This document shows, one piece after another, positions 47,288 through 59,018 of a stretch of DNA of 64,000 nucleotides (its first letter is position 1; each line of letters begins with the position of its first letter). Made by a program: the position numbers and the translations under genes. This DNA comes from a virus, in the IMG/VR virus record IMGVR_UViG_3300010392_000634; one strand, given 5' to 3'. The notes under the pieces were generated by a model. That model was not told the DNA's origin. It did not search any database and saw only the letters and a program-made list of their open reading frames with translations.

Positions 47288-48031
47288 ATGTGGAAGGTAA
47301 TTCTTTTTCTTTTGCTAATCTCACCATGTATGGCAGACCAAGGCTTAATTGCCAAGAAACCATATGATGATGAAATATATGTCTGCAAGAAAAGAACTCT
47401 CTATATTGCTGTTGACAAAACAGAGCTAACTACGTTAGAATCTAGCTTAACTAAAAGATGGATTGATAGAGTCAATCCGAAAGTTCTAGCAACACTTGAT
47501 TCGGATTTTATTTCTGACAAAATGTTGGAATATGACTTACGTGTTGCGAACATCAAGAGGCATTTTGATGTCAAATTTGTAGACTGGTATGACCAGAATA
47601 TTACCTACTACCCAGCTTATAAAATTGGAAGTGTTTGGCATCCATTGCCTAAAGGTGAGTATGAATCTCATAGGTGGTTGCAATTTTGGGAGTGGTTCAT
47701 TCGTGAGTGGAATCTTCTAGATAATCATGAGCGATGGGATATCAAAAAATGGTCCATAAGAAATGAAGTATACAATCAACGTACAGCAGACAGAAAAAAG
47801 TTTGTTGAAAATTTAGTCTCAAATAGCGATGGTAGATACAGTTACGTTGAATATGGATGCGACGAAGTAGACGAAATTGGTGACTGTGGTTATTATGTCG
47901 TATTCGATAATAATACACAAGAAGGTGTTACCATATTTGATATTGGTTATGTCCCAAAACATATGCCAGCAGAGCCAGTGGAACCAGTAAGTACTGAATG
48001 TCCATTGGACCCAAAATACAAAATAAACTAA
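47288..48031 (+). CDS. secreted hypothetical protein
   Basis: Signal peptide MWKVILFLLLISPCMA; 247 aa; lies inside the tRNA array. Confidence 0.55.
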   Translation: MWKVILFLLLISPCMADQGLIAKKPYDDEIYVCKKRTLYIAVDKTELTTLESSLTKRWIDRVNPKVLATLDSDFISDKMLEYDLRVANIKRHFDVKFVDWYDQNITYYPAYKIGSVWHPLPKGEYESHRWLQFWEWFIREWNLLDNHERWDIKKWSIRNEVYNQRTADRKKFVENLVSNSDGRYSYVEYGCDEVDEIGDCGYYVVFDNNTQEGVTIFDIGYVPKHMPAEPVEPVSTECPLDPKYKIN

Positions 48032-48034
48032 TAT

Positions 48035-48107
48035 GGGGTTATAGCTCAATTGGATAGAGCAACGGTCTTCTACACCGTAGGTCGGGGTTCGAGTCCCTGT
48101 AGCCCTA
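48035..48107 (+). tRNA. tRNA-Arg (anticodon TCT)
   Basis: Acceptor GGGGTTA/TAGCCCT, D-arm GCTC..GAGC, anticodon stem ACGGT/ACCGT with loop CTTCTAC. Confidence 0.8.
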
Positions 48108-48112
48108 CTTAA

Positions 48113-48187
48113 CTCGCTGTAGCTCAATTTGGTAGAGCGGCGGTCTGAAGAGCCGCGTCTGTAATGGTTCGATTCCATTTAGCGGGA
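48113..48187 (+). tRNA. tRNA-Phe (anticodon GAA)
   Basis: Acceptor CTCGCTG/TAGCGGG, anticodon stem GCGGT/GCCGC with loop CTGAAGA, T-arm AATGG-TTCGATT-CCATT. Confidence 0.7.
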
Positions 48188-48214
48188 CTTTTAAAAAAAA
48201 TACGACAGATGGCA

Positions 48215-48243
48215 TTGACAACATGATTCAACTCATGTACAAT
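48215..48243 (+). promoter_or_regulatory. sigma70-type promoter (TTGACA, 17 bp, TACAAT) inside the tRNA array
   Basis: Consensus -35 at 48215-48220 and -10 at 48238-48243 with a 17-bp spacer. Confidence 0.45.
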
Positions 48244-48255
48244 ATGCAAAACAAC

Positions 48256-48325
48256 GTGGAAGTAGCTCAGTTTGGTAGAGCAGGGTTCGCGACCTGTGTC
48301 GGTGGTTCGATTCCACCCTTCCCGG
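48256..48325 (+). tRNA. atypical tRNA-like gene (70 nt, short anticodon arm; anticodon undetermined, possibly CGC)
   Basis: Canonical D-arm TAGCTCAGTTTGGTAGAGC and T-arm GGTGG-TTCGATT-CCACC, but mismatches at 1-72 and 2-71 and only ~19 nt between the D and T arms. Confidence 0.4.
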
Positions 48326-48384
48326 CTTGCAGAAGAACAAAGGGTGTGTTCGTACAATGGGCACATTTTTCTTCTGCTAAACAT

Positions 48385-48458
48385 TGGAGATTGGTGAAGA
48401 GGACTAACACACTCCCCTCATAAGGGAATATTCACGGGTTCGAATCCCGTATCTCCTA
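48385..48458 (+). tRNA. tRNA-Met/fMet/Ile2 (anticodon CAT)
   Basis: Acceptor (T)GGAGAT/ATCTCC(T), anticodon stem CTCCC/GGGAA with loop CTCATAA, T-arm ACGGG-TTCGAAT-CCCGT. Confidence 0.7.
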
Positions 48459-48594
48459 TTAGAATGTTCTCCGCACGAGAACGCGGCATTAAGCGGGAGG
48501 GGATACCCTTGACATACGGAAGACTGCTATAGAAGTCCAAGTATTTTCGGTAATAGAACGACTTACCCTCATGCGGAGAATATTTTATACATAT
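48459..48594 (+). other. structured non-coding spacer with a 9-bp inverted repeat (TTCTCCGCA ... TGCGGAGAA)
   Basis: Repeat arms at 48467-48475 and 48562-48570, about 90 nt apart, between two CAT tRNAs. Confidence 0.25.
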
Positions 48595-48663
48595 CGCAGA
48601 TGGTCCGGTGACCAGCCAAGCCTCATAAGCTAGGATAGACAGGTTCAACCCCTGTATCTGCCA
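48595..48663 (+). tRNA. short tRNA-like gene with CAT anticodon loop (69 nt, minimal D-arm)
   Basis: Acceptor CGCAGAT/ATCTGCC, D hairpin GGTC-CGGT-GACC, loop CTCATAA, T-arm ACAGG-TTCAACC-CCTGT. Confidence 0.4.
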
Positions 48664-48817
48664 TTTTTGTAGGAGTTAACTTAACAGCTACATGCTATAG
48701 CTTAATAGTTATCTTCTGCATTATGTCTAGGAGTTGCGGTAGTTGGTTACTACACTCTCTTATAAGCAAAAGTCCTTAAGAGAAACCAAAAACAACTCTA
48801 TTGGACATAAAATTTTC

Positions 48818-49432
48818 TCAAATTCGAGATATAAAATGCTGTTCTCTATGACAATTAGCACATAGAAGTTGACATTTATCTAACTCGGATTTGATTTTAA
48901 TATGATGCTTCTCCCAAGAAGTGTGTCTGGCTTTTGATATATTAAAGTCTTTTTCAGTTGGGTCAACATGATGAAAGTCTAATGCCCCTTGACATTTATC
49001 GTAACCGCATTTTTCGCATTTGCCGCCCTTGTATTCAATACACTTTTGTTTCATAAGCTGATGTCTTTCTATTGCTTTTTCGGTATTACATGTTTTGCAA
49101 GTAGGATGATATGTGAATTTGATTTTACTCGTTCTTTTATGAAAGAATGATATATCTTTTTCTATATTGCATTTGTTACAAACTTTTGTTTTTAGTTCAG
49201 TATAAACTTTTTTATAAGCACCGATGTCGAAACATTTTTTACAATAAGTTAAATTTGCTGCAATTTTTTCTTGACAAATTTTACATTCTTTTGTAAGATG
49301 TCTTTTAACATGAATTTTGTTATTATATGTTGCAGAACATGAGCGGCTACAAAAGTGATTAGGGCTTTTTTTAATTTCACTTGGTAGTTTTTTAAATTCC
49401 GTGTTACAGTTTAAACAATTGACCTGTGGCAT
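48818..49432 (-). CDS. HNH homing endonuclease
   Basis: The only convincing minus-strand gene; Cys-rich zinc fingers and DFHHVDP ... CANCHREQH HNH motif; sits inside the tRNA array. Confidence 0.65.
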   Translation of the reverse strand: MPQVNCLNCNTEFKKLPSEIKKSPNHFCSRSCSATYNNKIHVKRHLTKECKICQEKIAANLTYCKKCFDIGAYKKVYTELKTKVCNKCNIEKDISFFHKRTSKIKFTYHPTCKTCNTEKAIERHQLMKQKCIEYKGGKCEKCGYDKCQGALDFHHVDPTEKDFNISKARHTSWEKHHIKIKSELDKCQLLCANCHREQHFISRI

Positions 49433-49496
49433 GATATTCCTTCGTGTTTGTTATATTGTTGTTAGTTCGTCTCCCACTATATTATACACCTTTTTC

Positions 49497-49568
49497 GCGT
49501 CTAAAGTGTTATTGGCTGCATTTCTGGCTTCCAACCAGACGGTCAGGGTTCGAGTCCCTGTAGACGCA
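49497..49568 (+). tRNA. tRNA-Gly (anticodon TCC)
   Basis: Acceptor GCGTCTA/TAGACGC, anticodon stem TCTGG/CCAGA with loop CTTCCAA, T-arm CAGGG-TTCGAGT-CCCTG. Confidence 0.65.
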
Positions 49569-49837
49569 CTTTCGGGCTATTTTCGGATTTGCCTAGATAA
49601 CGGAAGAATTAACTTCAAGTAGTGGTTGATGGACAGGCCACTTTAAAAGTCTATCAAAAAGTAACTGCAAAACAGTTCGCAATCGCTGCGTAATAGCAGC
49701 TAATGATGCCTGACTGAGCTATAAATCATGTCAAAACAGGTAGAAGCTGTAAAGCCTGTGGATTTATCTCAGCAACAACATATACTTTGCCGGTGAAGTC
49801 ATCGGATAAACTTGTAAACGTTATTTGAATAAATTAT

Positions 49838-49871
49838 ACTAGAAACGACGGTTCGAATCCGTCATAGTCCA
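49838..49871 (+). other. orphan tRNA 3'-half-like element (T-arm plus acceptor 3' strand)
   Basis: GACGG-TTCGAAT-CCGTC-ATAGTCC-A with no complementary 5' acceptor within 150 nt upstream; lies immediately upstream of the HNH gene at 49886. Confidence 0.3.
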
Positions 49872-49885
49872 ATAGATATTGATAT

Positions 49886-50431
49886 ATGTACACAAAATTA
49901 GTTTGTAACTATTGTGGTAATTACTTCGAAAAGAAAACCAACGAATATAATAGATGCGTCAAAAAAGGACAAAAGAATTATTTTTGTTCTAGGGACCATG
50001 CAAACAAATTTTTACCACGGCCACACTTAAAACCGAGAATGGAAAATATCATTCCCGGCTCATTTAAAGATGAATATTCTGATTTTAAGTGGTATATGAA
50101 GGTTGTAAGAAATCGATGTAATAAAAAACAATACGAAACAGATATTAGTTTAATGTTTTTAAAACATCTTTGGAAAGAACAAGAAGGTAAATGTGCATTA
50201 ACTCAAATACCTATGCAATTAAGAACTCATGATAGTTCAGATAAGTTGGAATTTTATACTGCATCGTTAGACAGGATAGACAACACAAAAAGATATACAA
50301 AAGATAATGTTAGATTTGTCTGTGTTATGACTAACTATGCGAGAAATACTTTTTCTGATAATGATTTTTATGAGTTTATAAAACTAGCATCAAAAGCTAT
50401 TTTAGGAAAAGGAAAAAAGGATGGCAATTAA
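49886..50431 (+). CDS. HNH-family homing endonuclease-like protein
   Basis: N-terminal CNYCG ... FCSRDH zinc finger shared with the other HNH genes; C-terminal SLDRIDNTKRYTKDNVRFVC. Confidence 0.45.
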   Translation: MYTKLVCNYCGNYFEKKTNEYNRCVKKGQKNYFCSRDHANKFLPRPHLKPRMENIIPGSFKDEYSDFKWYMKVVRNRCNKKQYETDISLMFLKHLWKEQEGKCALTQIPMQLRTHDSSDKLEFYTASLDRIDNTKRYTKDNVRFVCVMTNYARNTFSDNDFYEFIKLASKAILGKGKKDGN

Positions 50432-51026
50432 CAAACAACCCACTCTAGGAAAAAAAGCACAAGAAGCCGGTATCAAAGATGCAGTGCATGTTGCTATCGT
50501 TTCGTGTCGTGCTGGTGGACCCCTCTCTCCCGGTGATAGGGTGAAACTCAACGAGTATAGAGAAGCAATCAAGACATATAGTAAAGACTATATCGGAGTT
50601 GCTGACCCTTTCATTAAGGGAGGTATTGACAAAGGAAGTTTCTTCTGGCTTGTAATGAAGCCTAATGAAACTGAAGCAGTTCGGCATGTTTGGGACCACG
50701 AATTGGACTTTTCCGCTCCAGACCGTGAAGTTCAGGAATGCAAATGGATAAAAGAGTACGCAGACGACCTTGGGGTGAGCTATCAGTTCTTGATGGATGC
50801 TGCAAGAAAAGCTGTCAATGGAGAGTCTTCTCCTAAGTACGAAGGAACAAAAACTCAGGAAGAAATCGAAGAAGTATTAGATGACTTCTATGACTTCTGG
50901 TATTACTGGAGCGAAGAAACTGGATACGAGTTTGAAAACTGTGGGTCTGCGTGTTGTCCAGAATACGAACATCCTTCCTCGTTTAGTATATTTGACTATT
51001 CTGAAGCTAAGAGTGAAGAATCTTAG
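50421..51026 (+). CDS. paralog-family protein A3 (DAVHVAIVS ... PGDRV ... GVADPFI ... RHVWDHE)
   Basis: Third paralog; C-terminal GSACCPEYE Cys motif. Confidence 0.55.
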   Translation: MAINKQPTLGKKAQEAGIKDAVHVAIVSCRAGGPLSPGDRVKLNEYREAIKTYSKDYIGVADPFIKGGIDKGSFFWLVMKPNETEAVRHVWDHELDFSAPDREVQECKWIKEYADDLGVSYQFLMDAARKAVNGESSPKYEGTKTQEEIEEVLDDFYDFWYYWSEETGYEFENCGSACCPEYEHPSSFSIFDYSEAKSEES

Positions 51027-51037
51027 ACTTTAGATAA

Positions 51038-51111
51038 CAACCCATAGTGTCAATGGTCTAGCACATTACTCTGATAAGGTAATAGTCGTGGTTCGAGTCC
51101 ACGTGGGTTGA
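51038..51111 (+). tRNA. tRNA-Ile (anticodon GAT)
   Basis: Acceptor CAACCCA/TGGGTTG, D-stem GTGT/GCAC, anticodon stem TTACT/GGTAA with loop CTGATAA. Confidence 0.8.
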
Positions 51112-51115
51112 CTTT

Positions 51116-51186
51116 CGCATCTTAGTTTAAAGCTAGAATACCTACCATGAGGGTAGGAGACGGTGGTTCAATTCCATCAGGTGCGA
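51116..51186 (+). tRNA. atypical tRNA-like gene (71 nt; loop CATGAGG, anticodon possibly TGA with A33)
   Basis: Acceptor CGCATCT/AGGTGCG pairs 7/7; tiny D-arm AGTT-TAA-AGCT; anticodon stem CCTAC/GTAGG; T-arm GGTGG-TTCAATT-CCATC. Confidence 0.5.
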
Positions 51187-51249
51187 CTTTAAGAGATGTT
51201 AGAAAAATAGGTCGTCTATCAACCTTTGTTCTCCGGCATCTCTTTATAA

Positions 51250-51322
51250 TGTGGAGTAGCTCAATTGGCAGAGCACTTGTCTTGTAAACAAGAGGTTGCG
51301 GGTTCGATGCCCGTCTCCACAT
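51250..51322 (+). tRNA. tRNA-Thr (anticodon TGT)
   Basis: Acceptor TGTGGAG/CTCCACA, D-arm GCTC..GAGC, anticodon stem CTTGT/ACAAG with loop CTTGTAA. Confidence 0.8.
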
Positions 51323-51327
51323 CTTAT

Positions 51328-51400
51328 GCCTCTGTAGCTCAATGGTTAGAGCAAGAAACTCTAAACTTCTTGGTTGCAGGTTCGAATCCTGTCGGGGGCA
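51328..51400 (+). tRNA. tRNA with anticodon CTA (putative amber suppressor)
   Basis: Fully canonical 73-nt tRNA: acceptor GCCTCTG/CGGGGGC, D-arm GCTC-AATGGTTA-GAGC, T-arm GCAGG-TTCGAAT-CCTGT. Anticodon stem AGAAA/CTTCT has an A31-C39 mismatch and the loop is CTCTAAA, so positions 34-36 read CTA. Confidence 0.6.
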
Positions 51401-51584
51401 CTGTTTTTATTTTTAACAAAACTATCTTCAAAGGAGAAAAGTAATGTTGTAGGTTGACGAAAAATGGTTAGCACATGGTGAATTAGTTTGGAGTTTCTAT
51501 CAGAAGCTCTTAAAAGGTGACTGGGATAATTTAAGACTCCCAGAGTGGTTTGTAGAGCATCACGAAATACTCGTATCTCTTCAG

Positions 51585-52259
51585 TTGCCTATCAAACAAG
51601 TTAAACAGTATATCATTTATCACGATTGCGGAAAGCATTTGTGTGAAACTGTTGACGAAGGTGGTAAACATTATCCAGACCACGCGAATGTTTCTGCTGA
51701 TTATTGGGCAGAACATAGTGATGACAAACTAGTTGAGAAGTTGATTCGTAATGATATGTTTTTTCATATCTGTAAAGCGAATGACTTAAAAGAAACAACA
51801 CTAACCAAACGTGAATTAGCAACATTATTAGTGACAGCACTTGCTGAGATTCATGCCAATGCAGAAATGTTCGGTGGAATCGAATCACAATCTTTCAAAA
51901 TTAAATACAAGCAGATTGAAAGACGTGGCAAATCCTTCGTAAAAGATAATCTTATCGACAATTACAAGGGTTACACATACTGTTTTGTGAGAACAGATAT
52001 TACTCCCTCTCAACAAGCAGTACAAATGTCACATGCGTGCATTGAAGCACAGAAAAAATTCAGTCCTAGTAGGCATCCATCAATTGTGGCTATCGGGACT
52101 AAAAAGAAAAAAATACAAAAAATTATACAGGAATGTATTGACAACGAGATAGATTTCGCTATATTTAGAGATAACATATTTGATAACGAGGTCACAGCAA
52201 TTGCAACTGAACCTCTTTATGAAAACAGAAAAGTTTTTGACAGGTATACATTACTCTAA
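51585..52259 (+). CDS. two-domain protein: N-terminal HD-like region plus C-terminal peptidyl-tRNA hydrolase PTH2-like domain
   Basis: YHDCGKH (HD-like) in the N-terminus; C-terminal YCFVRTDITPSQQAVQMSHACIEA ... VTAIATEP resembles the PTH2 core; no in-frame ATG upstream, so the start is probably TTG. Confidence 0.5.
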   Translation: MPIKQVKQYIIYHDCGKHLCETVDEGGKHYPDHANVSADYWAEHSDDKLVEKLIRNDMFFHICKANDLKETTLTKRELATLLVTALAEIHANAEMFGGIESQSFKIKYKQIERRGKSFVKDNLIDNYKGYTYCFVRTDITPSQQAVQMSHACIEAQKKFSPSRHPSIVAIGTKKKKIQKIIQECIDNEIDFAIFRDNIFDNEVTAIATEPLYENRKVFDRYTLL

Positions 52260-52277
52260 ATTAAAGGACCAACTATC

Positions 52278-52715
52278 GTGTTAGTCTCGAAGTACAATCC
52301 AAAATTTGATGGTTGTTTACATGTACAACAATACAAACAACTATCTGAACTTTATCTGGAAAATTTTAATGCTCCAGTATTGACATACAACGAGTTTGTC
52401 GATAGAATCAATTCAGACGATGTCACTATTTACACTTTCGAAGTGGGTGACAAAGTAGTGGCAACAGCTTCAGGATATTTATACCCGTCTCTGTTACACG
52501 GTGGACAGCCTAGAATGCAGATTGAAAATGTCTGCACTAGAAAAGAGCATCAAGGTAATGGATATGCATCACATTTAATCGGATTGCTCATAGAGCTGGC
52601 AGAAGAAAAAGGGTGCTATAAAGTATCACTAAGCTGTTCTGACAAAAACTTGGACTTCTATCAGAATAGAGGTTTCAAACAACATGAACACACTATGAGG
52701 ATTGATTTGGTATGA
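52278..52715 (+). CDS. GNAT family N-acetyltransferase
   Basis: Acetyl-CoA-binding motif HQGNGYASHLIG; GTG start. Confidence 0.6.
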   Translation: MLVSKYNPKFDGCLHVQQYKQLSELYLENFNAPVLTYNEFVDRINSDDVTIYTFEVGDKVVATASGYLYPSLLHGGQPRMQIENVCTRKEHQGNGYASHLIGLLIELAEEKGCYKVSLSCSDKNLDFYQNRGFKQHEHTMRIDLV

Positions 52716-52906
52716 CTACTGCTGATACGCATTTAGAGAATGCAAGAGACAAAGTAAAAGAGGCTGTTCGTGACCTATCACAAATTTTAATCGAAGAGTG
52801 TTATGGACATGATGAATATGCTGAAAGTTTCAATTTAAAACTGGAATCAGCATTTACAAAACTGAGAGTAGTTGATAAACTACTAAATAATAAAGATATC
52901 GAATAA
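52712..52906 (+). CDS. hypothetical protein
   Basis: 64-aa ORF. Confidence 0.4.
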   Translation: MTTADTHLENARDKVKEAVRDLSQILIEECYGHDEYAESFNLKLESAFTKLRVVDKLLNNKDIE

Positions 52907-53094
52907 AAACGACAAGGCGAATGATATGACTCGTCACCATATTATGCTTGCCGCAAACCAATCAACTGCTGCTCGCAGAGAGCATAAAGTTGTATTGAGA
53001 ACATATTCCACAACGACGATTACAGTGGTGCAGATTGAGACGTGAGGGTAATTGCCTCTAACTTCCATCTAAATGTTTGCTAGATTTTTATTCA

Positions 53095-53154
53095 TCGCGG
53101 GTAATGCTAAGGGAATCATTGACTAAGCTGGCGGTTTGAATCCGCTCCCGCAAC
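53095..53154 (+). other. 60-nt tRNA-like mini-element (acceptor + D-arm + T-arm, no anticodon arm)
   Basis: TCGCGGG-TA-AATG..CATT-...-GGCGG-TTTGAAT-CCGCT-CCCGCAA; the acceptor strands pair. Confidence 0.3.
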
Positions 53155-53309
53155 CAACAAATAATGTATGACAAGCCGAATGACTATGAATCAACTTGGC
53201 GTAAACCTGTTTTTAGGTCGCTACTAAAGACAGAGAATTGAGTACAGGCTAGTGAATTAGCTACTCACGAACAGGTCTGTAGAAATGTTTACTTGATACA
53301 TTAAAATAT

Positions 53310-53384
53310 GGCGGTGTAGTCCAATTGGCAGGAGACGCATGTCTTAGGAACATGACAGTATGGGTTCGAATCCCATTGCCGCTA
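53310..53384 (+). tRNA. tRNA, anticodon TAG (Leu-type anticodon but short variable loop)
   Basis: Acceptor GGCGGTG/TGCCGCT (with wobbles), anticodon stem CATGT/ACATG with loop CTTAGGA, T-arm ATGGG-TTCGAAT-CCCAT; 3-nt connector between the D and anticodon stems. Confidence 0.55.
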
Positions 53385-53682
53385 CTTTTATGGCCGTGAG
53401 TGAAAAGAGGCTGTTGAAATACATAAGCCGTTCACCTTAATAGTATGATAAATGTGTCAAATAAAACATACTGTATCTTACGCTTTGACTTATTGCGTCG
53501 GTCATATTTAATATAAGAGGTCGAGCCGGTGTGCGACTAAGTCTAGTAGACTGCTAGATTGAATACGTCGGTTCATCCAGAAGTTAACTGGCTTATGTGC
53601 GAACGCGGAGTAGTCACTGCTTAGTAGGCATATGTTTGGGCTTCATCACGGATGCACATCGGCACGCCCTCTTATATAACAT

Positions 53683-53773
53683 TCCCCGGTACGCTAACTG
53701 GTAAGCGGCCAAGCTGTTAACTTGGTGTAGTCCGTCTTTGAACGGTATAGAGGTTCGACTCCTCTCTGGGGAG
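53683..53773 (+). tRNA. class-II (long variable arm) tRNA, anticodon GTT by manual reading
   Basis: Acceptor TCCCCGG/CTGGGGA, D-arm CGC-TAACTGGTAA-GCG, anticodon stem CCAAG/CTTGG with loop CTGTTAA, variable-arm hairpin CCGT..ACGG; Tyr-like architecture with a non-GTA anticodon. Confidence 0.55.
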
Positions 53774-53788
53774 CTTAGGAGAAATACT

Positions 53789-54223
53789 ATGAAGGTTTTG
53801 ATTAGCGGACATAGAAAATCAAAATTAGCCAACTATGACATCAAATGGATATCTAATGAAATAGAACGGCTTATATTTGAGAATCCAGCTATAATTGGAT
53901 TATCAGGGATGGCCGATGGCATAGACCTTTTATACTGCCAACTATTACTTCAATATAGGCGTGGGTATCATTGCTATATCCCCTTTGATGAACAAGACAA
54001 GTATATGTCAGACCATGATAAAACATGGCGTCAAAGTTTAATTGACTCATCTTGGGCTGTCATAAAAGCAAAAAATTCACAAATGGTTTCAGATTGTGAT
54101 TATGGAATCATAGTTTGGGATGGAAATAAAGGTGGTACACACAACGTGTTCCAGCAAATGCTCGAAGCAAAGAAAAACTTTTGGTGGATTGAACCACATA
54201 ATCAAAAAGTAATTTATTTTTAA
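53789..54223 (+). CDS. hypothetical protein, possibly SLOG/YpsA-like Rossmann fold
   Basis: RBS AGGAGAAATACT; LISGHRKSKL ... GLSGMADGIDLL; start moved downstream of the tRNA. Confidence 0.5.
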   Translation: MKVLISGHRKSKLANYDIKWISNEIERLIFENPAIIGLSGMADGIDLLYCQLLLQYRRGYHCYIPFDEQDKYMSDHDKTWRQSLIDSSWAVIKAKNSQMVSDCDYGIIVWDGNKGGTHNVFQQMLEAKKNFWWIEPHNQKVIYF

Positions 54224-54296
54224 GGTATTAAAATGTCTATTAAACGCAAACGCAAACATCGATAAACGCATGGAGTTTATGACTTCATGTTAGCAT

Positions 54297-54368
54297 GGGG
54301 TCATGGTGTAGCGGTTGCATTGCAGACTTTTAATCTGTTAGGCGGGGGTTCGAATCCCTCTGGCCCTA
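54297..54368 (+). tRNA. tRNA-Lys (anticodon TTT)
   Basis: Acceptor GGGGTCA/TGGCCCT, anticodon stem GCAGA/TCTGT with loop CTTTTAA, T-arm GGGGG-TTCGAAT-CCCTC. Confidence 0.75.
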
Positions 54369-54396
54369 TTTTTAAACACATATGAAAAAAAGATAT

Positions 54397-54471
54397 AGGG
54401 GATTAGTTCAATTGGATAGAATATCAGTCTACGAAACTGAAGATGTTGAGGTTCGAGTCCTACATTCCCTA
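54397..54471 (+). tRNA. tRNA-Arg (anticodon ACG)
   Basis: Acceptor AGGGGAT/ATTCCCT, D-stem GTTC/GAAT, anticodon stem TCAGT/ACTGA with loop CTACGAA; weak T-stem. Confidence 0.7.
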
Positions 54472-54479
54472 CTTTATTT

Positions 54480-54902
54480 ATGAAAAAACAATGCTATCAA
54501 TGCAACCAAGAGTTGCCACTATCCTCTTTTAATAAAAACTGCAAGAAAAAAGATGGGTTGCAATCAGAGTGTAGAGATTGTGGCAAGACGTACCGTAAAC
54601 AGCATTATCAAGATAACAAACAGTATTATATAGATAAGGCAGTAAAAAGACGGGACAACAATGTTAAAAAACTTACGCCTTTATTAGTAGAATATCTGGA
54701 ACAGAATCCTTGTGTGGACTGTGGAAACAATGATATACGTGTGCTGCATTTTGACCATTTAGAAAATAAGCAATATCATGTCCCGGAAATGATTAGACTA
54801 GGACATAGTTGGCAAAATATTCTATCTGAGATATCGAAATGCGATGTTAGATGTGCTAACTGTCACGCCATCAAAACATGGCCGAACAGGTTTGATACTT
54901 AG
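54480..54902 (+). CDS. HNH homing endonuclease
   Basis: N-terminal CYQC ... CRDCG zinc finger; HFDHLENK ... CANCH HNH motif. Confidence 0.65.
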   Translation: MKKQCYQCNQELPLSSFNKNCKKKDGLQSECRDCGKTYRKQHYQDNKQYYIDKAVKRRDNNVKKLTPLLVEYLEQNPCVDCGNNDIRVLHFDHLENKQYHVPEMIRLGHSWQNILSEISKCDVRCANCHAIKTWPNRFDT

Positions 54903-54911
54903 GAATAAAAC

Positions 54912-55121
54912 ATGGAAATCACTGGAAAAGAAGTATCGGAATGGCTAATTAGCAATAAAGACAGGCTTGCTTTTATCTTGCCAAAAGTCGATGTTGCTGA
55001 ATTAGGCAAATGTATCTATGCTGTTGAAGATGATGCAATTATTTTTATGCTTCAGGAAATTCAATATCCAGAAGTTAAGCTGGACAACATGTGTCCTGAA
55101 ATAGATAATACGGGGGCGTAG
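54912..55121 (+). CDS. hypothetical protein
   Basis: 69-aa ORF; its 3' end overlaps the start of the next tRNA by ~9 nt. Confidence 0.4.
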   Translation: MEITGKEVSEWLISNKDRLAFILPKVDVAELGKCIYAVEDDAIIFMLQEIQYPEVKLDNMCPEIDNTGA

Positions 55122-55187
55122 CCCAATTAGGCAGAGGCAAGCGACTTAAAATCGCTCCAGTATGGGTTCGAGTCCCATCGTCCCTAC
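55113..55187 (+). tRNA. tRNA, anticodon TAA (Leu-type anticodon but short variable loop)
   Basis: Acceptor GGGGGCG/CGTCCCT, anticodon stem AGCGA/TCGCT (perfect) with loop CTTAAAA, T-arm ATGGG-TTCGAGT-CCCAT. Confidence 0.55.
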
Positions 55188-55235
55188 TCACGTGACAGTT
55201 TTAAAAGAGGTTTCTGTACAAAAAACCAATACATA

Positions 55236-55307
55236 CCAGATTAGTGTAATTGGTAGCACATCGGTTTCCAAGTCCGAAAGTCAGGGTTCGAGTCCTTGGT
55301 CTGGTGC
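55236..55307 (+). tRNA. tRNA-Trp (anticodon CCA)
   Basis: Acceptor ACCAGAT/GTCTGGT, D-arm GTG..CAC, anticodon stem TCGGT/TCCGA with loop TTCCAAG. Confidence 0.7.
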
Positions 55308-55317
55308 TTTTTTAATG

Positions 55318-55399
55318 GGAATACTACGCTTGTGGGAAAGTGGGATGGGTTGTAACCCCGTCGTCTCTGACTAAGCGGTTCGATTCCGTATATTCCCAC
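55318..55399 (+). tRNA. tRNA-Tyr (anticodon GTA), class II
   Basis: Acceptor GGGAATA/TATTCCC (perfect), anticodon stem ATGGG/CCCGT with loop TTGTAAC, 12-nt variable arm. Confidence 0.7.
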
Positions 55400-55412
55400 T
55401 TGGAGGTTCAAA

Positions 55413-55636
55413 TGTCAAAATTCTTATTTTTCGATATCTTAGGATATTTAGAAGAGACAGATACTCCAGTACTCAAAAAATGGTTCGACTTCGATAAAGA
55501 AGAAGGACAAATTTTGATTAAAGATTATGTTTTTACCGTAAGACCAAAAGATTCGTATATAATTGGAAAAATTCCACAAACGGACTTGAATTACGACAAC
55601 TACATAACTATAATTGATACAATCAACGAAGGATAA
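55413..55636 (+). CDS. hypothetical protein
   Basis: RBS TTGGAGGTTCAA; start moved downstream of tRNA-Tyr. Confidence 0.45.
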
Positions 55637-55639
55637 AAC

Positions 55640-56047
55640 ATGCATTGGCCAAAACTATTTTTCAAACGTGCAGACGGTGGTGAAAAATCTGGTGTAACTG
55701 GTTATATGTTGATTGAATGGAAGTCAGTTTTCTCAATTGGGCTGTTACATTTTAAAGAAGGCTCACGAGAAGCATTTCATACACACGCATTCAATGCTAT
55801 TACTTGGTGGCTTAAAGGTCTTGTTGTAGAAGTACACGCTAATGCGGATAATATACTTGACAAATTCAAATTATTTCGTCCGTCATTAAAACCAAAATTT
55901 ACAAGTAGAGACTGCTATCATAAAATTATAGCATACACAGATACTTGGGCCTTAACTTTTCGAGGACCGTGGAAAAACGAATGGAAAGAGTTAAGACCTG
56001 ACGGTGAAGTAGTTTTAACTCATGGAAGAAAAATTCAGTCTCTATAA
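55640..56047 (+). CDS. hypothetical protein
   Basis: 135-aa ORF. Confidence 0.5.
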   Translation: MHWPKLFFKRADGGEKSGVTGYMLIEWKSVFSIGLLHFKEGSREAFHTHAFNAITWWLKGLVVEVHANADNILDKFKLFRPSLKPKFTSRDCYHKIIAYTDTWALTFRGPWKNEWKELRPDGEVVLTHGRKIQSL

Positions 56048-56170
56048 ATAATATCAACTTGAGAGTATAACAGATTCATGACTGGCCGTAGTTGAGAACA
56101 TAAGAAACGCTACGAGCAAGTTGGTAACTGAAACCGTGGGAGGCAGCGGTATACAAACAGCCTTATATGA

Positions 56171-56243
56171 GGGCTGGCATGTACCAAGGGGGCGAGAAAT
56201 ACTTGCAATATTTCTGTGACGAGTTCGATTCTCGTTCGGTCCA
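56171..56243 (+). tRNA. tRNA-Ala (anticodon TGC)
   Basis: Acceptor GGGCTGG/TCGGTCC includes the G3-U70 alanine identity pair; anticodon stem AAATA/TATTT with loop CTTGCAA; T-arm ACGAG-TTCGATT-CTCGT; irregular D-arm. Confidence 0.6.
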
Positions 56244-56246
56244 TTT

Positions 56247-56771
56247 ATGATATATTATATAGAAAAATCTGGTAGAAAACGAAAAGGAATAGAGAAGACA
56301 TGTCCTGTATGTCATAATTTGTTTGTAACTAGACTAGACCAACAAGGAACATATTGTTCTAAACAGTGCTGTTCTGATAGTCGTAAGAATAAGGTACAAT
56401 TACAATGTGACTGCTGTGATAAATTGTTTTACAGACATCCTAGTGCTTTATCTTGTTCAAAAAGCGGGTTTTATTTTTGTTCTAGGGAATGTAAGGACAA
56501 ATCACAAAGACTTGGTGGTATTGAAGAAATTATGCCGAGTCACTACGGTTCATTCCAAGGTAGAAAATCAGCTATATATCGTAGAACATATAAAGAGCTG
56601 AATAATATAGAAATACTATCATGTATTCGCTGCGGATATTCTGAATTTGAATCTGCTGTAGACATCCATCATATTGATGAAAATTGTAATAACAACTCAA
56701 TAGAAAACTTAACTGCCTTATGTGCGTGTTGTCATAGGGGATTACATTATAGGCTGTGGGAATTACAATGA
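56247..56771 (+). CDS. HNH homing endonuclease
   Basis: CPVCHN ... zinc finger; HHIDENCNNNSIENLTALCACCHRGLH HNH motif. Confidence 0.65.
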   Translation: MIYYIEKSGRKRKGIEKTCPVCHNLFVTRLDQQGTYCSKQCCSDSRKNKVQLQCDCCDKLFYRHPSALSCSKSGFYFCSRECKDKSQRLGGIEEIMPSHYGSFQGRKSAIYRRTYKELNNIEILSCIRCGYSEFESAVDIHHIDENCNNNSIENLTALCACCHRGLHYRLWELQ

Positions 56772-57211
56772 TAGTAGAACCAAAAGAAATTCCATATGTC
56801 AAAATTTTAGATGGACAGACGGTTGGTCTAACAAGCGGTTGTTTTGACTTGCTCCACTTCTATCATTTGAATTATCTATTACGTTGTAAAGCTAGATGCG
56901 ATGTTTTAATCGTAGGCGTCGATGCTGACGACGTAGTCCAAGAAAACAAAGGTAAAGCACCAGCTAATCCTGAATATCACAGAGCAGCAATGTTAGCCGC
57001 ATTAGACTGTGTTGATGTGGTTTTTGTCTTACGAAGTCTTGATGACCTAGTAAAAGCTGGTGACCATGCAGATTTTCTGTTTAAAAATAATCCAACTATT
57101 TACGGACAAGAAGTAGTTGGTACGCAAAGAGCAGAATTGGTAATCGTGCCAGATGTTGAGGAAGTTACTTCAACAACTGCTCTGAAAGATAAAATCAGGA
57201 GAGATACATGA
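56768..57211 (+). CDS. cytidylyltransferase-like nucleotidyltransferase (HxGH family)
   Basis: GCFDLLHFYHLNYL (HxGH-type motif) at the N-terminus. Confidence 0.55.
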   Translation: MIVEPKEIPYVKILDGQTVGLTSGCFDLLHFYHLNYLLRCKARCDVLIVGVDADDVVQENKGKAPANPEYHRAAMLAALDCVDVVFVLRSLDDLVKAGDHADFLFKNNPTIYGQEVVGTQRAELVIVPDVEEVTSTTALKDKIRRDT

Positions 57212-57402
57212 GATTTACACAGCTTAAAAATGGTGAAGGAATTAAACGCGGTGTAATTGATATTATCGGTGCGTTTTCTGGAACCCCAAAAATAATACAG
57301 CATATGCAATTTCACGATGAAAATAATTTTGAGTCGAAAAATGAAGATGCTGAAAATGGAAGAGAGCCGAATATTGGTTTGTCGGACTCGCCTGCTAAGT
57401 GA
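57208..57402 (+). CDS. hypothetical protein (doubtful; 3' end overlaps tRNA-Ser)
   Basis: 64-aa ORF whose last ~45 nt coincide with the tRNA beginning at 57358. Confidence 0.25.
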   Translation: MRFTQLKNGEGIKRGVIDIIGAFSGTPKIIQHMQFHDENNFESKNEDAENGREPNIGLSDSPAK

Positions 57403-57445
57403 GGCCGTAGCAATGCGGTGATGGGTTCAATTCCCTCCTCTTCCG
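57358..57445 (+). tRNA. tRNA-Ser (anticodon GCT), class II
   Basis: Acceptor GGAAGAG/CTCTTCC, anticodon stem CTCGC/GTGAG with loop CTGCTAA, long variable arm. Confidence 0.7.
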
Positions 57446-57607
57446 CTTTAGTCAATCGGTTTCTAACGAGAGAATACGTGGAAGATTGGTCCCATTAGAC
57501 TAACCTGTGTTATCACGATGTTTTAGGTGCTGTGATTTAATGGAATTACTATGCAACACTACATATATAGCACAGGCGTAGCAAAGTCTCTTATTGACTA
57601 CTTATTT

Positions 57608-57694
57608 GGAAGCTATCCTGCTGGATTAGGAGCTTGTTTAGAAAACATGTGGGTCAGAAATGGCCTTGGTCGGGTTCGAGTCCCCCAGCTTCCG
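57608..57694 (+). tRNA. class-II tRNA (Ser/Leu-type), anticodon uncertain (AGA or TAG)
   Basis: Acceptor GGAAGCT/AGCTTCC (perfect), D-arm CCTG..., long variable arm, T-loop TTCGAGT; the anticodon stem has a mismatch. Confidence 0.55.
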
Positions 57695-57702
57695 CTTTTT
57701 AT

Positions 57703-57776
57703 GGTGACTGTAGTGTAATTGGTTAGCACGGGACCTTGTGACGGTTCTAGTGCGGGTTCAAGTCCCGTCGTTCACC
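57703..57776 (+). tRNA. tRNA-His (anticodon GTG) with encoded G-1
   Basis: Extra 5' G pairs with discriminator C; acceptor GTGACTG/CGTTCAC; anticodon stem GGACC/GGTTC with loop TTGTGAC; T-arm GCGGG-TTCAAGT-CCCGT. Confidence 0.7.
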
Positions 57777-57784
57777 CCTTTTTT

Positions 57785-57869
57785 GGAAGTCATCCGGCTG
57801 GATGAGGGTGCTGTCTTGAAAATAGCTGTGTCATTTATGGCATTGTGGGTTCGAGTCCCACGGCTTCCG
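57785..57869 (+). tRNA. tRNA-Ser (anticodon TGA), class II
   Basis: Acceptor GGAAGTC/GGCTTCC, anticodon stem GCTGT/ATAGC with loop CTTGAAA, variable-arm hairpin TGTCAT..ATGGCA. Confidence 0.7.
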
Positions 57870-58135
57870 CTTATGTAAAGTCTATGAGTTAATCCAACCC
57901 GGACAATGATTCGTAGCAAACACTGGAGGATAGGCAGGACGAAAGTGTAAAAGTCCAATGAAGGGCGGTTGTGGCAGTAGCTCCAACTTCCCAGAGGATG
58001 CTGTTTTTTCCCTGCAAAATAGACACCTTCGCTATCCTTCAGGTTTTATACAAGGAAATTAATATGGGCTGTCAATATATCTAGAGTGGTGTATTGATAA
58101 TCACAATAAAATCAAAAAGACATTAGGACAATAAG

Positions 58136-58543: not shown

Positions 58544-58633
58544 CTTTTTTTTGGATTTTTCATGTTTTTATCTTTACTTTTTGGTCTTTCAATACTATTA
58601 TCTATTGTAACAACACTTTTTAAAAAATAACAT

Positions 58634-59012: not shown

Positions 59013-59018
59013 CTTTTT

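What the first reader, a model, noticed from the sequence alone, without database searches (positions are those of the whole stretch)
51328..51400. Canonical tRNA with anticodon CUA (putative amber suppressor) in a genome that uses TAG as a stop
The gene has a perfect cloverleaf: D-arm GCTC-AATGGTTA-GAGC, T-arm GCAGG-TTCGAAT-CCTGT and a 5-nt variable loop. Positions 34-36 read CTA, with U33 and A37, and the acceptor stem and short variable arm point to a Gln/Lys/Trp-type parent.

About 12 predicted genes in this window end in TAG. In two cases the next ORF is in the same frame with no intervening stop: 760..969 runs into 1012..1236, and 8843..9016 runs into 9026..9220. Read-through would fuse those products.

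Phage-encoded suppressor tRNAs are known from phages that recode TAG, or they may tune late expression. Here TAG mostly looks like a genuine stop, so regulated or partial read-through is the more likely role.
Basis: seen in the sequence. Interest (0 to 1): 0.65.

Follow-up and report, generated by a model that had tools for sequence, protein, structure and literature searches.

The report
Suppressor tRNA with its hidden target
The amber-suppressor tRNA is real, and right beside it is the gene it appears to exist for: a tRNA-end-processing enzyme whose third codon is a conserved in-frame TAG, a pairing found in every related giant phage examined, including cultured ones whose suppressor tRNAs had no known target.

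Summary
The tRNA at 51328..51400 is a genuine elongator tRNA with anticodon CUA (ARAGORN; Rfam 65.6 bits). It lies in an array of 26 tRNAs plus a tmRNA in a novel jumbo-phage-like genome. In the window TAG is an ordinary stop: it ends 27 of 118 ORFs, and recoding it gives no gain in coding density.

43 nt downstream come a Shine-Dalgarno, ATG TTG TAG, and then a 268-codon open frame (51444..52259). That frame has no alternative start for 44 codons, and homologs and codon usage show those codons are coding.

An in-frame TAG at codon 3-4 of this gene unit occurs in 18 lineages, down to about 38% identity. These include the cultured phages XacN1, RAS14, Xoo-sp13, ME3, pT24, RsoM2USA and Arash. 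Three Rak2-like phages carry the TAG at codon 47 instead. None of the 21 lineages examined is a counter-example, and a tRNA-CUA was confirmed in all 16 that could be checked.

The XacN1 and RsoM2USA papers report that no target could be identified. I read this as a dedicated suppressor/amber-gated gene module.

The parts
51328..51400 (+). Amber-suppressor tRNA (anticodon CUA at 51361..51363; G1-C72, A73, A31.C39 mismatch)
   Evidence: ARAGORN. Rfam tRNA 65.6 bits with CUA at positions 34-36. Covariation in 16 of 20 pairs across 8 orthologs.
51430..51436 (+). Shine-Dalgarno AAAGGAG, 7 nt upstream of the ATG
   Evidence: Read from the sequence. An SD-like motif precedes the ATG-NNN-TAG in every lineage.
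51444..51446 (+). Inferred true start codon (ATG) of the gated gene
   Evidence: It is the only start codon in frame upstream of the conserved HG motif. The next ATG/GTG/TTG is at 51585, after the motif.
51450..51452 (+). Gating amber codon (TAG, codon 3), followed by a purine
   Evidence: It is the only TAG in the 271-codon frame. The position is conserved in 9 marine lineages and in XacN1, RAS14, ME3, pT24 and Arash. It is at codon 4 in Xoo-sp13, L029, LR745206 and RsoM2USA.
51453..51584 (+). 44 codons after the TAG that are coding but lack any start codon; they contain the conserved HG..VW motif
   Evidence: Codon-usage score is 0.35 per codon, against an in-frame mean of 0.42; only 0.6% of off-frame windows reach it. 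phrog_14850 coverage extends from profile positions 147-264 to 102-264, and bits rise from 151 to 178. Homologs cover 96-100% of the extended protein.
51444..52259 (+). Amber-gated gene: N-terminal HD-superfamily domain (HG...HDCGKH...) fused to a C-terminal PTH2-like peptidyl-tRNA hydrolase fold; terminator TAA
49574..49874 (+). Phage tmRNA (tag AKQFAIAA), recurrently close to the tRNA-CUA in relatives; a possible functional partner
   Evidence: ARAGORN and Rfam, 68.4 bits. tmRNA is adjacent to the tRNA-CUA in L015 and 1 kb away in XacN1.
47036..59860 (+). tRNA array (26 tRNAs) in which the module is embedded

Best explanation
The tRNA-CUA and the gene immediately downstream form a two-part module.

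The gene (51444..52259) encodes an HD-phosphohydrolase/PTH2-like enzyme. Its folds point to chemistry at tRNA 3' ends: peptidyl- or aminoacyl-tRNA hydrolysis, or 3'-end repair. It opens with SD-ATG-TTG-TAG.

Host RF1 would end translation after a dipeptide. Only when the phage's own charged suppressor tRNA decodes UAG at codon 3 does the ribosome continue and make the enzyme. Synthesis of this tRNA-directed enzyme is therefore tied to the presence and activity of the suppressor, that is, to the balance between suppressor and RF1. Elsewhere in the genome TAG remains a normal terminator.

Shown:
- The tRNA is real and under selection.
- The in-frame TAG exists.
- The 44 codons after it are coding.
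- There is no alternative start in this lineage.
- TAG position, reading frame and co-occurrence with a tRNA-CUA are conserved across very distant jumbo phages that use the standard code.

Inferred:
- This tRNA, rather than another mechanism, decodes the TAG.
- The inserted amino acid is unknown. Gln is the precedent in phages.
- The purpose of the arrangement is unknown. My preferred reading is a feedback or sensor loop, analogous to prfB's in-frame UGA, linking suppressor activity to an enzyme that handles the suppressor tRNA or the peptidyl-tRNA and stalled-ribosome products of read-through or drop-off.
For: 1. tRNA-CUA confirmed by two methods and by strong covariation.

2. The frame 51417..52256 is open except for one TAG at codon 3, after an SD-led ATG. 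No ATG/GTG/TTG occurs for the next 44 codons.

3. Those codons are coding:
- codon score 0.35;
- extended PHROG match;
- homologs of 260-283 aa cover 96-100%;
- they contain the conserved HG motif of the HD domain.

4. Nine marine-clade lineages (47-100% aa identity) all have a tRNA-CUA 38-250 nt upstream and TAG at codon 3. Codon 2 varies (TTG, TTA, CTG, TCG, ACC, ACT) and downstream codons change synonymously. A search pattern that did not include the TAG found only TAG-bearing loci.

5. The same gate occurs at 36-43% identity in cultured and complete phages:
- XacN1, RAS14, Xoo-sp13;
- L029;
- ME3, pT24, RsoM2USA;
- Arash and LR745206.
It sits at the start of the unit whatever the domain order (HD-PTH2, PTH2-HD, or two cistrons).

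6. Rak2-like phages XbC2, fHe-Yen9-04 and GAP32 have the TAG at codon 47 instead.

7. The stop is TAG in 21 of 21 lineages, never TAA or TGA, and always in frame. The gene's own terminator is TAA or TGA wherever it was seen: 7 of the 8 marine loci analysed (L012 runs off the contig).

8. A tRNA-CUA was confirmed in 16 of 16 phages where it could be checked: 9 marine lineages, XacN1, fHe-Yen9-04, GAP32, ME3, pT24, Arash and RsoM2USA (PMC8504454).

9. These phages use the standard code. XacN1 structural ORFs are intact. L029 portal and protease genes are intact. TAG ends 26% of ORFs in the window and relatives.

10. The XacN1 authors looked for targets by reading through 18 terminal ambers and found none (PMC5852040).

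11. The base after the gating TAG is A in 11 of the 13 lineages tallied. It is also A in pT24, ME3, RsoM2USA, Arash and LR745206, as read from the sequences.
Against: - There is no direct evidence of read-through: no proteomics, ribosome profiling or reporter data.
- In XacN1, Xoo-sp13 and L029 an in-frame ATG lies 4-5 codons after the TAG. In those lineages a two-codon uORF with reinitiation could also give a functional protein.
- In most marine relatives the codon after the TAG is ATT or ATA, a rare start codon. In the window itself it is GTT, which is not a start.
- The tRNA is adjacent to the gene only in the marine clade. Elsewhere it lies 0.4-200 kb away.
- The late-gene region of the window's own genome could not be obtained, so additional in-frame TAGs there are not excluded.
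- TAG-terminated genes show no enrichment of backup stops (p = 0.2). It is therefore unexplained how about 25% of genes tolerate the suppressor.
- The apparent Gln evidence from P0016 was an artefact of a code-15 gene call.
Confidence: 0.78

Rival explanations
1. The phage is a code-15 (TAG-to-Gln) recoded phage. The tRNA enables translation of many late, structural or lysis genes with in-frame TAGs that lie outside the window, and the neighbouring gene is just one of many recoded genes.
For: Phage tRNA-CUA is the hallmark of TAG-recoded phages, and recoding is concentrated in late genes that a 64-kb early region would not show (10.1101/2021.08.26.457843). The rest of this genome could not be retrieved. 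One source's gene caller used code 15 on relative L017.
Against: - TAG ends 23-26% of ORFs in the window and in six related loci, whereas recoded phages and their relatives are TAG-depleted.
- Coding density does not rise when TAG is recoded: 0.845 falls to 0.834.
- Only one coding-supported in-frame TAG was found in 64 kb.
- Phages with the same gated gene use the standard code. XacN1 has only 18 TAG stops and intact structural genes. L029 has intact portal and protease genes. GAP32, fHe-Yen9-04, pT24, ME3 and Arash are deposited with standard-code annotation.
- The TAG position is fixed at codon 3-4 over deep divergence, unlike scattered recoding.
Confidence: 0.06
2. ATG-NNN-TAG is a two-codon 'start-stop' minigene or uORF, like the lambda bar minigenes. 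It regulates the downstream ORF by termination-reinitiation or by peptidyl-tRNA drop-off. The TAG is not read through, and the tRNA-CUA is unrelated.
For: - XacN1, Xoo-sp13 and L029 have an in-frame ATG 4-5 codons after the TAG.
- ATT or ATA follows the TAG in most marine relatives.
- From established knowledge, SD-ATG-NNN-stop minigenes generate dipeptidyl-tRNA, which is the substrate class of the PTH2-like domain encoded downstream.
Against: - In the window, L007, RAS14 and others there is no ATG/GTG/TTG between the TAG and the conserved HG motif. The window has GTT after the TAG.
- A uORF need not be in frame or use TAG. Yet 21 of 21 cases are in frame and use TAG, while TAG accounts for only about 26% of stops.
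- This rival leaves the 16-of-16 co-occurrence with a tRNA-CUA, and the 9-of-9 adjacency in the marine clade, unexplained.
- The Rak2-like TAG at codon 47 splits the HD domain and cannot be a uORF.
- The codons between the TAG and the HG motif evolve as coding sequence.
Confidence: 0.08
3. One reading: the suppressor causes low-level read-through of ordinary terminal TAGs, producing C-terminally extended or fused proteins (760/1012, 8843/9026) as its selected function.
For: 27 window genes end in TAG. Three of them run in frame into the next ORF. Any active suppressor will extend some of these products.
Against: - There is no homology support for any fusion.
- The linker shows no coding signal.
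- Same-frame run-ons are equally common after TAA and TGA stops.
- Read-through extension lengths do not differ by stop type.
- In XacN1, in-silico read-through of all 18 terminal ambers found nothing (PMC5852040).
Confidence: 0.05
4. The in-frame TAGs are pseudogenising mutations or sequencing errors in a decaying gene, and the suppressor tRNA is a neutral passenger.
For: GenBank annotators treated the genes as truncated or split.
Against: - The same codon position recurs in 18 independent assemblies and isolates.
- The window matches the JGI contig L006 (sample 3300010430) at 100% identity over 13.6 kb. Whether that contig is an independent assembly is not known.
- The rest of each ORF is intact (271-298 codons, with a single TAG) and under purifying selection, with many invariant residues.
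- The AF2 model is confident.
- The tRNA shows compensatory evolution.
Confidence: 0.01

Closest known systems
Stop-codon-recoded phages (genetic code 15: crAss-like, Lak and other gut phages) with phage-encoded tRNA-CUA
   Same: A phage-encoded amber suppressor decodes in-frame TAG in phage genes inside a host that uses the standard code. Expression of the TAG-containing genes is thereby made to depend on the phage tRNA (10.1101/2021.08.26.457843; PMC9523058).
   Different: - Here TAG remains a frequent genuine terminator (23-26% of ORFs).
- Only one gene unit is known to carry the in-frame TAG.
- That gene is a tRNA-related enzyme in the early/tRNA region, not a late or lysis gene.
- The TAG sits at a fixed position (codon 3-4) conserved across distant lineages.
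- In the marine clade the tRNA is physically adjacent to its target.
Orphan suppressor tRNAs of cultured jumbo phages (XacN1, RsoM2USA, GAP32, fHe-Yen9-04, pT24, ME3)
   Same: They share the same kind of tRNA-CUA in tRNA-rich, standard-code jumbo phages. The window's tRNA-CUA and theirs have G1-C72, mostly A73, and often a non-Watson-Crick 31:39 pair.
   Different: In the literature their targets are unknown. [quoted passage not shown] RsoM2USA: no target named (PMC8504454). This analysis supplies a common candidate target, hidden by mis-annotated starts and split CDSs.
prfB (RF2) autoregulation through an early in-frame UGA
   Same: A gene of the translation apparatus carries an early in-frame stop codon. 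Its bypass reports on the cell's termination and decoding capacity. This gives a built-in sensor (established knowledge; PMC13245932 was listed).
   Different: prfB uses a +1 frameshift at codon 26 and senses RF2 itself. Here bypass would be by a dedicated suppressor tRNA at codon 3, and it is not known whether the enzyme feeds back on suppression.
Lambda bar minigenes and peptidyl-tRNA hydrolase
   Same: Both have the SD-ATG-NNN-stop architecture. Such two-codon ORFs release dipeptidyl-tRNA, whose recycling needs peptidyl-tRNA hydrolase. Here the downstream frame encodes a PTH2-fold domain (established knowledge, from memory).
   Different: bar minigenes are stand-alone, use TAA or TGA, and are not in frame with a downstream coding sequence. 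Here the stop is always TAG, always in frame, and a cognate suppressor is always present.
Programmed stop-codon read-through in viruses (Q-beta A1 protein; MuLV gag-pol UAG-to-Gln)
   Same: Read-through of a single defined stop codon is needed to make a functional viral protein.
   Different: Those viruses use host near-cognate tRNAs at low efficiency to make a C-terminal extension at a fixed ratio. Here the virus brings its own cognate suppressor, and the stop lies at the very N-terminus, so the whole protein is all-or-none.
Synthetic amber-suppressor gating circuits (e.g. suppressor-tRNA feed-forward 'leak dampener', PMC7969014)
   Same: The logic is identical: an early amber codon in the target gene plus a co-expressed suppressor tRNA makes expression conditional.
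   Different: That system is engineered. This would be a natural, evolutionarily conserved counterpart.

Membership tests
Canonical elongator tRNA (Rfam RF00005) | Cloverleaf with 7-bp acceptor stem, D arm with G18G19, 7-nt anticodon loop with U33, and a T-loop of TTCGAAT type | tested here: met
   65.6 bits against a gathering score of 29, full-length model match. The only non-standard pair flagged is 31:39. ARAGORN agrees.
Amber (UAG) suppressor tRNA | Anticodon CUA at positions 34-36 | tested here: met
   The anticodon is invariant in 8 aligned orthologs. ARAGORN calls anticodon CTA in all 16 tRNA-CUAs found.
Amber (UAG) suppressor tRNA | It is expressed, aminoacylated and decodes UAG in vivo | not testable with these tools
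   Supported only indirectly, by compensatory evolution and by the conserved in-frame TAG target.
tRNA-Pyl (ARAGORN's label) | Pyl-type anatomy: 3-nt variable loop, 6-bp anticodon stem, very small D-loop lacking G18G19, atypical T-loop | tested here: not met
   The tRNA has a 5-nt variable loop (TGGTT), a 4-5-bp anticodon stem, an 8-nt D-loop with GG, and a canonical TTCGAAT T-loop. The Pyl-type features are recalled from established knowledge.
Code-15 (TAG-recoded) phage | Many genes with in-frame TAG, and coding density rises when TAG is read as sense | tested here: not met
   Density is 0.845 in code 11 and 0.834 with TAG recoded. One coding-supported in-frame TAG was found in 64 kb.
Code-15 (TAG-recoded) phage | TAG avoided as a terminator | tested here: not met
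   TAG ends 27 of 118 ORFs in the window, and 78 of 299 across the window and six related loci.
Code-15 (TAG-recoded) phage | In-frame TAGs concentrated in late, structural or lysis genes | tested here: inconclusive
   The late region of this genome was not retrievable. Phages that share the gated gene have intact structural genes in the standard code: XacN1 and L029.
PTH2 peptidyl-tRNA hydrolase family (PF01981), C-terminal domain of the gated protein | PTH2 alpha/beta fold | tested here: met
PTH2 peptidyl-tRNA hydrolase family (PF01981), C-terminal domain of the gated protein | Sequence membership above Pfam's gathering score, and catalytic activity | tested here: inconclusive
   Pfam PTH2 scores E 0.0035, 18 bits, below the cut-off of 23. 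A few homologs carry a precomputed PF01981 hit. Activity was not tested.
HD-domain metal-dependent phosphohydrolase superfamily, N-terminal domain | H...HD...D motif on an all-helical HD fold | tested here: met

The most novel reading that the evidence does not exclude
tRNA-rich jumbo phages carry a conserved natural translational circuit. It consists of a private amber codon at the N-terminus of an HD/PTH2 tRNA-end enzyme and a phage suppressor tRNA that decodes it.

The enzyme in turn acts on the suppressor tRNA or on the by-products of suppression and early termination: peptidyl- or aminoacyl-tRNA, or ribosomes that ran past TAG stops, possibly together with the neighbouring phage tmRNA. 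The loop would measure and set the level of UAG read-through during infection.

This would be a virus-encoded analogue of prfB-type autoregulation built from a tRNA, and it would be the long-sought function of 'orphan' suppressor tRNAs in standard-code phages.
Probability: 0.3. Interest if true: 0.9.

Novelty: new variant of a known kind. Interest (0 to 1): 0.8.

Why it matters
Suppressor tRNAs are repeatedly reported in cultured jumbo phages that use the standard code. Their purpose has been an explicit open question. The XacN1 paper states that no target genes could be identified, and the RsoM2USA paper could only speculate.

This analysis gives a specific candidate answer that holds in all 21 lineages examined. 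That makes the question directly testable in at least seven culturable phage-host pairs: XacN1, RsoM2USA, GAP32, fHe-Yen9-04, pT24, ME3 and Arash.

It also shows a natural case of single-gene 'private codon' gating by a virus-encoded tRNA in a genome that otherwise uses TAG as a stop. This state is distinct from genome-wide recoding and may be an evolutionary stepping stone to it.

It links the gate to a tRNA-end-processing enzyme of unknown function that has about 1,400 cluster representatives.

In practical terms, it exposes a systematic annotation error. The genes are truncated or split, and one tRNA-CUA is labelled tRNA-Phe, in GenBank records and in metagenome gene calls.

Tried and rejected
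- **Finding the source genome failed.** Megablast of 1.2 kb and 24 kb against GenBank phages found nothing. The exact tRNA and a semi-degenerate tRNA-CUA pattern found nothing in the viral, metagenome and genome collections. The look-up of encoding contigs returned only identical fragments of at most 13.6 kb. The late genes of this phage could therefore not be examined.
- **The search for related loci** with the AAA ATPase in IMG/VR found nothing.
- **'TAG = Gln' from homolog P0016 (MTQINF...) was retracted.** The locus DNA has TAG at that codon, and the Q came from a code-15 gene call.
- **Amino-acid identity from paralogs gave nothing.** No array tRNA is more than 66% identical. TAG-free N-termini are not collinear. 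The codon-47 site in Rak2-like phages lies in a variable loop.
- **Backup-stop adaptation after TAG terminators was not found.** Median extension is 11 codons for TAG, against 14 for TAA and 9.5 for TGA; p = 0.2.
- **Other N-terminal extensions across a TAG in the window were rejected.** The candidates (RtcB and the ORFs starting at 33279, 58136, 19969 and 6426) show no coding signal in frame.
- **Other suppressor-type tRNAs in relatives do not gate a neighbour.** The L007 tRNA-UCA is followed by a normal gene. The L011 tRNA-UUA is followed by tRNA-like elements. An apparent open frame after L007 TAG 9013 is a tRNA-like region.
- **No code-change module was found.** No release factor or aaRS appears among the 40 window ORFs scanned in Pfam.
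- **No promoter or terminator separates the tRNA from the gene** in the simple scan, which is only weak evidence.
- **Literature searches** for a prior description of an amber-gated gene next to a phage suppressor found none. The library is incomplete, so prior work cannot be excluded.
Full report
**1. The observation**

ARAGORN finds 26 tRNAs and a tmRNA between 47036 and 59860, all on the + strand. One is a tRNA at 51328..51401 with anticodon CTA. Its 'tRNA-Pyl' label only reflects the anticodon.

Rfam's tRNA model matches 51328..51400 at 65.6 bits. The covariance-model alignment places C-U-A at positions 34-36, flanked by U33 and A37. The only non-standard pair it flags is A31.C39.

The tRNA is not a recent anticodon mutant of a neighbour. 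The most similar array member is 66% identical.

**2. The genome and its use of TAG**

All plausible genes in the window are on the + strand, and GC is about 38%. Annotated products include:
- RtcB, an RNA ligase, ThyX, a BCS1-like AAA ATPase, glycosyltransferases and radical-SAM enzymes;
- a second HD protein and an SSB.

The nearest GenBank phages are jumbo phages at about 30% protein identity, and there is no nucleotide match. This is a novel, tRNA-rich, jumbo-phage-like genome. It is known otherwise only as short identical metagenome fragments.

Among 118 non-overlapping + strand ORFs, 49 end in TAA, 42 in TGA and 27 in TAG. Reading TAG as sense does not raise coding density: it goes from 0.845 to 0.834. 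Across the window and six related loci TAG ends 78 of 299 ORFs. TAG is therefore a normal terminator here, unlike in TAG-recoded phages and their TAG-depleted relatives (10.1101/2021.08.26.457843).

**3.

760..969 and 8843..9016 do run in frame into the next ORF. So do comparable fractions of TAA- and TGA-terminated ORFs. No PHROG or Pfam family spans either junction. The 970..1011 linker has no coding signal. I regard these as chance same-frame neighbours.

**4. The actual target in the window**

43 nt after the tRNA the sequence reads AAAGGAG-N7-ATG TTG TAG GTT GAC GAA AAA TGG TTA GCA CAT GGT....

The frame 51417..52256 is open except for this single TAG at 51450. There is no ATG, GTG or TTG in the 44 codons between the TAG and the TTG at 51585, where ORF finders and the JGI gene call start.

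Three results show those 44 codons are coding:
- Their codon-usage score is 0.35 per codon, against an in-frame mean of 0.42. Only 0.6% of off-frame windows reach that value.
- Adding them extends the phrog_14850 match from profile positions 147-264 to 102-264, and raises the score from 151 to 178 bits.
- Dozens of homologs of 260-283 aa cover 96-100% of the extended protein. This includes an HG..VW motif, conserved in all full-length N-termini, that lies inside the stretch.

In the window, this is the only TAG followed by 40 or more open, coding-like codons with no start codon. Other possible extensions across a TAG are not coding.

**5. Conservation in the marine clade**

I fetched the genomic context of homologs at 47-84% identity: L007/L013, L010, L011, L012, L014, L015, L016 and L017.

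Every one has a tRNA-CUA 38-250 nt upstream and begins SD-ATG-NNN-TAG.
- Codon 2 varies: TTG, TTA, CTG, TCG, ACC, ACT.
- Codon 4 is ATT, ATA or GTT.
- Later codons differ mostly at third positions. This is the signature of a translated sequence.
- The TAG is invariant. It is the only TAG in each 271-278-codon ORF.
- The real terminator is TAA or TGA in all seven loci where the end of the gene is present.

A pattern search built only from downstream codons, so not biased towards TAG, returned two loci in the metagenome collection. Both have the TAG and the tRNA.

The eight tRNA-CUAs show compensatory changes in 16 of 20 stem pairs, with an invariant U33-CUA-A37.

**6. Conservation far beyond the clade, in cultured phages**

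tblastn against GenBank phages found the family in many jumbo phages. I translated the homologous frame in each.

| Phage | N-terminal reading |
|---|---|
| XacN1 | SD-ATG AAG TAG ACC... |
| RAS14 | SD-ATG AAG TAG ACC..., with no start before the HG motif |
| Xoo-sp13 | M K K TAG |
| L029 (219-kb contig) | M N T TAG...; portal and prohead protease intact in the standard code |
| LR745206 (634 kb) | M N T TAG I |
| RsoM2USA | M K S TAG I; the TAG also ends the upstream gene |

Where the domain order is reversed or split, the TAG is still at codon 3 of the first cistron:
- pT24, a PTH2-HD fusion: M K TAG I.
- ME3: M T TAG I on the PTH2-like gene.
- Arash: M L TAG N on the PTH2-like gene.

In the Rak2-like phages XbC2, fHe-Yen9-04 and GAP32 the HD-only gene instead has one conserved TAG at codon 47 (SELDTG*GDPVLL). 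GenBank splits the gene in two there.

In total, 18 lineages have an N-terminal TAG and 3 have the codon-47 TAG. I found no counter-example among the 21 examined. All TAGs are in frame, and none of these positions is TAA or TGA.

**7. Co-occurrence with a tRNA-CUA**

Besides the nine marine lineages, a tRNA-CUA is present in:
- XacN1, two per terminal repeat;
- fHe-Yen9-04, 2.5 kb away;
- GAP32, 2.3 kb away;
- ME3, 0.4 kb away;
- pT24, 2.6 kb away, one of only four tRNA genes annotated in the 40-kb stretch fetched;
- Arash, 0.5 kb away and mislabelled tRNA-Phe;
- RsoM2USA (PMC8504454).

That is 16 of 16 where I could check. For RAS14, Xoo-sp13, XbC2, L029 and LR745206 I held only a few kb.

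These phages use the standard code. XacN1 has intact multi-kb structural genes and only 18 amber stops.

**8. What the literature says**

[quoted passage not shown] The RsoM2USA paper names no target.

Work on recoded phages describes genome-scale recoding of late genes and a 'code change module'. It does not describe a single N-terminal amber in a tRNA-related gene. My searches found no prior description, but the library is incomplete.

**9. The gated protein**

An AF2 model built on 54 sequences is confident (pLDDT 95.8).

The two domains occur fused in either order, or as adjacent genes. That argues they work together.

The family has 1,399 cluster representatives at E <= 1e-10. Its neighbours are often translation-related: a GatB/YqeY-like gene in XacN1 and Xoo-sp13, ValRS in RAS14, and separate PTH2 genes, tRNAs and tmRNA elsewhere. 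The catalytic function is inferred from fold only.

**10. Mechanism**

*Shown.* A functional-looking tRNA-CUA exists. There is a conserved in-frame UAG at the start of a conserved gene. In several lineages there is no other way to initiate upstream of an essential-looking motif. TAG specificity, frame conservation and tRNA co-occurrence are all strict.

*Inferred.*
- The tRNA decodes this UAG in competition with RF1, so the enzyme is made only when the phage suppressor is active.
- The purine after the TAG favours suppression. It is A in nearly all cases (and the sequences read). The rule itself comes from E. coli genetics, recalled from memory.
- An unsuppressed UAG at codon 3 costs only a dipeptide and, by analogy with minigenes, yields dipeptidyl-tRNA, which is the substrate class of a peptidyl-tRNA hydrolase.
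- This, together with the recurrent proximity of a phage tmRNA (window, L015, XacN1), suggests a loop coupling suppression to clean-up of its by-products. That part is hypothesis.

*Undetermined.* The inserted amino acid is not known.
- G1-C72/A73 is not E. coli-Gln-like.
- XacN1's two suppressors differ in acceptor stem and discriminator.
- My one apparent Gln clue was an artefact.

**11. Caveats**

- No experimental read-through data exist.
- Reinitiation is possible in lineages that have a downstream ATG.
- The late region of this particular genome was not seen.
- It is unexplained how the roughly 25% of genes ending in TAG tolerate the suppressor. They show no enrichment of backup stops.
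- Lineages are phylogenetically related, so simple probability products overstate independence. However, turnover of the flanking codons shows the TAG has had ample opportunity to change.

**12. Verdict**

It is wrong about the targets.

The finding leads to a conserved suppressor-tRNA/amber-gated-gene module that has, to my knowledge, not been described. It answers a published open question and can be tested in culturable systems.

Noticed in passing
window 49574..49874; L015 3124..3496; L027 (XacN1) 36047..37621: A phage-encoded tmRNA (tag AKQFAIAA in the window) lies close to the tRNA-CUA in three distant lineages: 1.5 kb away in the window, 3 nt away in L015, and 1 kb away in XacN1 (a permuted tmRNA). 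This may be a functional link between suppression and ribosome rescue.
   Followed up: partly
window 51361..51363 region; 12 tRNA-CUAs analysed: 8 of 12 phage tRNA-CUAs have a non-Watson-Crick 31:39 pair (A:C, C:U or C:A), which gives a 4-bp anticodon stem. XacN1's also have a 27:43 mismatch. This recalls reports that 4-bp anticodon stems promote stop-codon decoding (PMC13092985 was listed).
   Followed up: partly
L027 (XacN1) 36047..36122 and 36130..36205: XacN1's two tandem suppressor tRNAs share identical D, anticodon and T arms. They differ in acceptor stem (GGCCCGU versus GCUUUCG) and discriminator (A73 versus G73). They may therefore be charged by different synthetases.
   Followed up: no
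window 51116..51187: The tRNA called 'Ser(UGA)' is only 72 nt. It has a short variable arm and A rather than U at position 33, so it is not a normal bacterial tRNA-Ser. Its identity and function are unclear.
   Followed up: no
window 48256..48324: A tRNA-like sequence is found by Rfam only (35.4 bits) and not by ARAGORN. It has an irregular anticodon arm and acceptor-stem mismatches, and may be a pseudo-tRNA or an unusual tRNA.
   Followed up: no
window 23655..24719, 25639..26763, 15758..16567, 56756..57211: A tRNA repair and maintenance toolkit lies near the array: RNA ligase, RtcB, a second HD_4-domain protein and a cytidylyltransferase-like protein. This is consistent with defence against host anticodon nucleases.
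   Followed up: partly
L011 14458..14533 and 14540..14790; L007 3013..3085: Relatives also carry ochre-type (UUA) and opal-type (UCA) suppressor-like tRNAs. In L011, tRNA-like or Y-RNA-like elements sit just upstream of a Ro60/TROVE gene (14825..16399). No gated gene lies next to the UCA tRNA.
   Followed up: partly
GenBank records: RAS14 WAX21615; XacN1 ORF364; GAP32_398/399; fHe-Yen9-04 g408/g409; XbC2_408/409; ME3_195; pT24 BPT24_235; Arash gp84c and the tRNA at L032 3928..4002: The in-frame TAG causes systematic mis-annotation. Starts are placed at internal GTG or ATG codons, genes are split into two CDSs, and Arash has a 50-aa 'peptidyl-tRNA hydrolase' fragment. ARAGORN reads the Arash tRNA at L032 3928..4002 as anticodon CUA, but the record labels it tRNA-Phe.
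   Followed up: yes
L022 (RsoM2USA) 877..2004: In RsoM2USA the gating TAG is also the stop codon of the upstream Cys-rich gene (RsoM2USA_92). That gene is in frame with the HD gene, so read-through could also make a 92-91 fusion protein.
   Followed up: no
L017 (Logan SRR15237806 contig) 326..1156: One public gene call (P0016) translated the TAG as Q, so a code-15 model was applied to that contig. Such calls can masquerade as evidence for Gln in protein databases.
   Followed up: yes
window 60287..62584: A 765-aa trypsin-like protease gene ends in TAG and is followed one codon later by TAA. 54480..54902 and 4448..4687 show a similar tandem stop. Overall, though, backup stops are not enriched after TAG.
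   Followed up: yes
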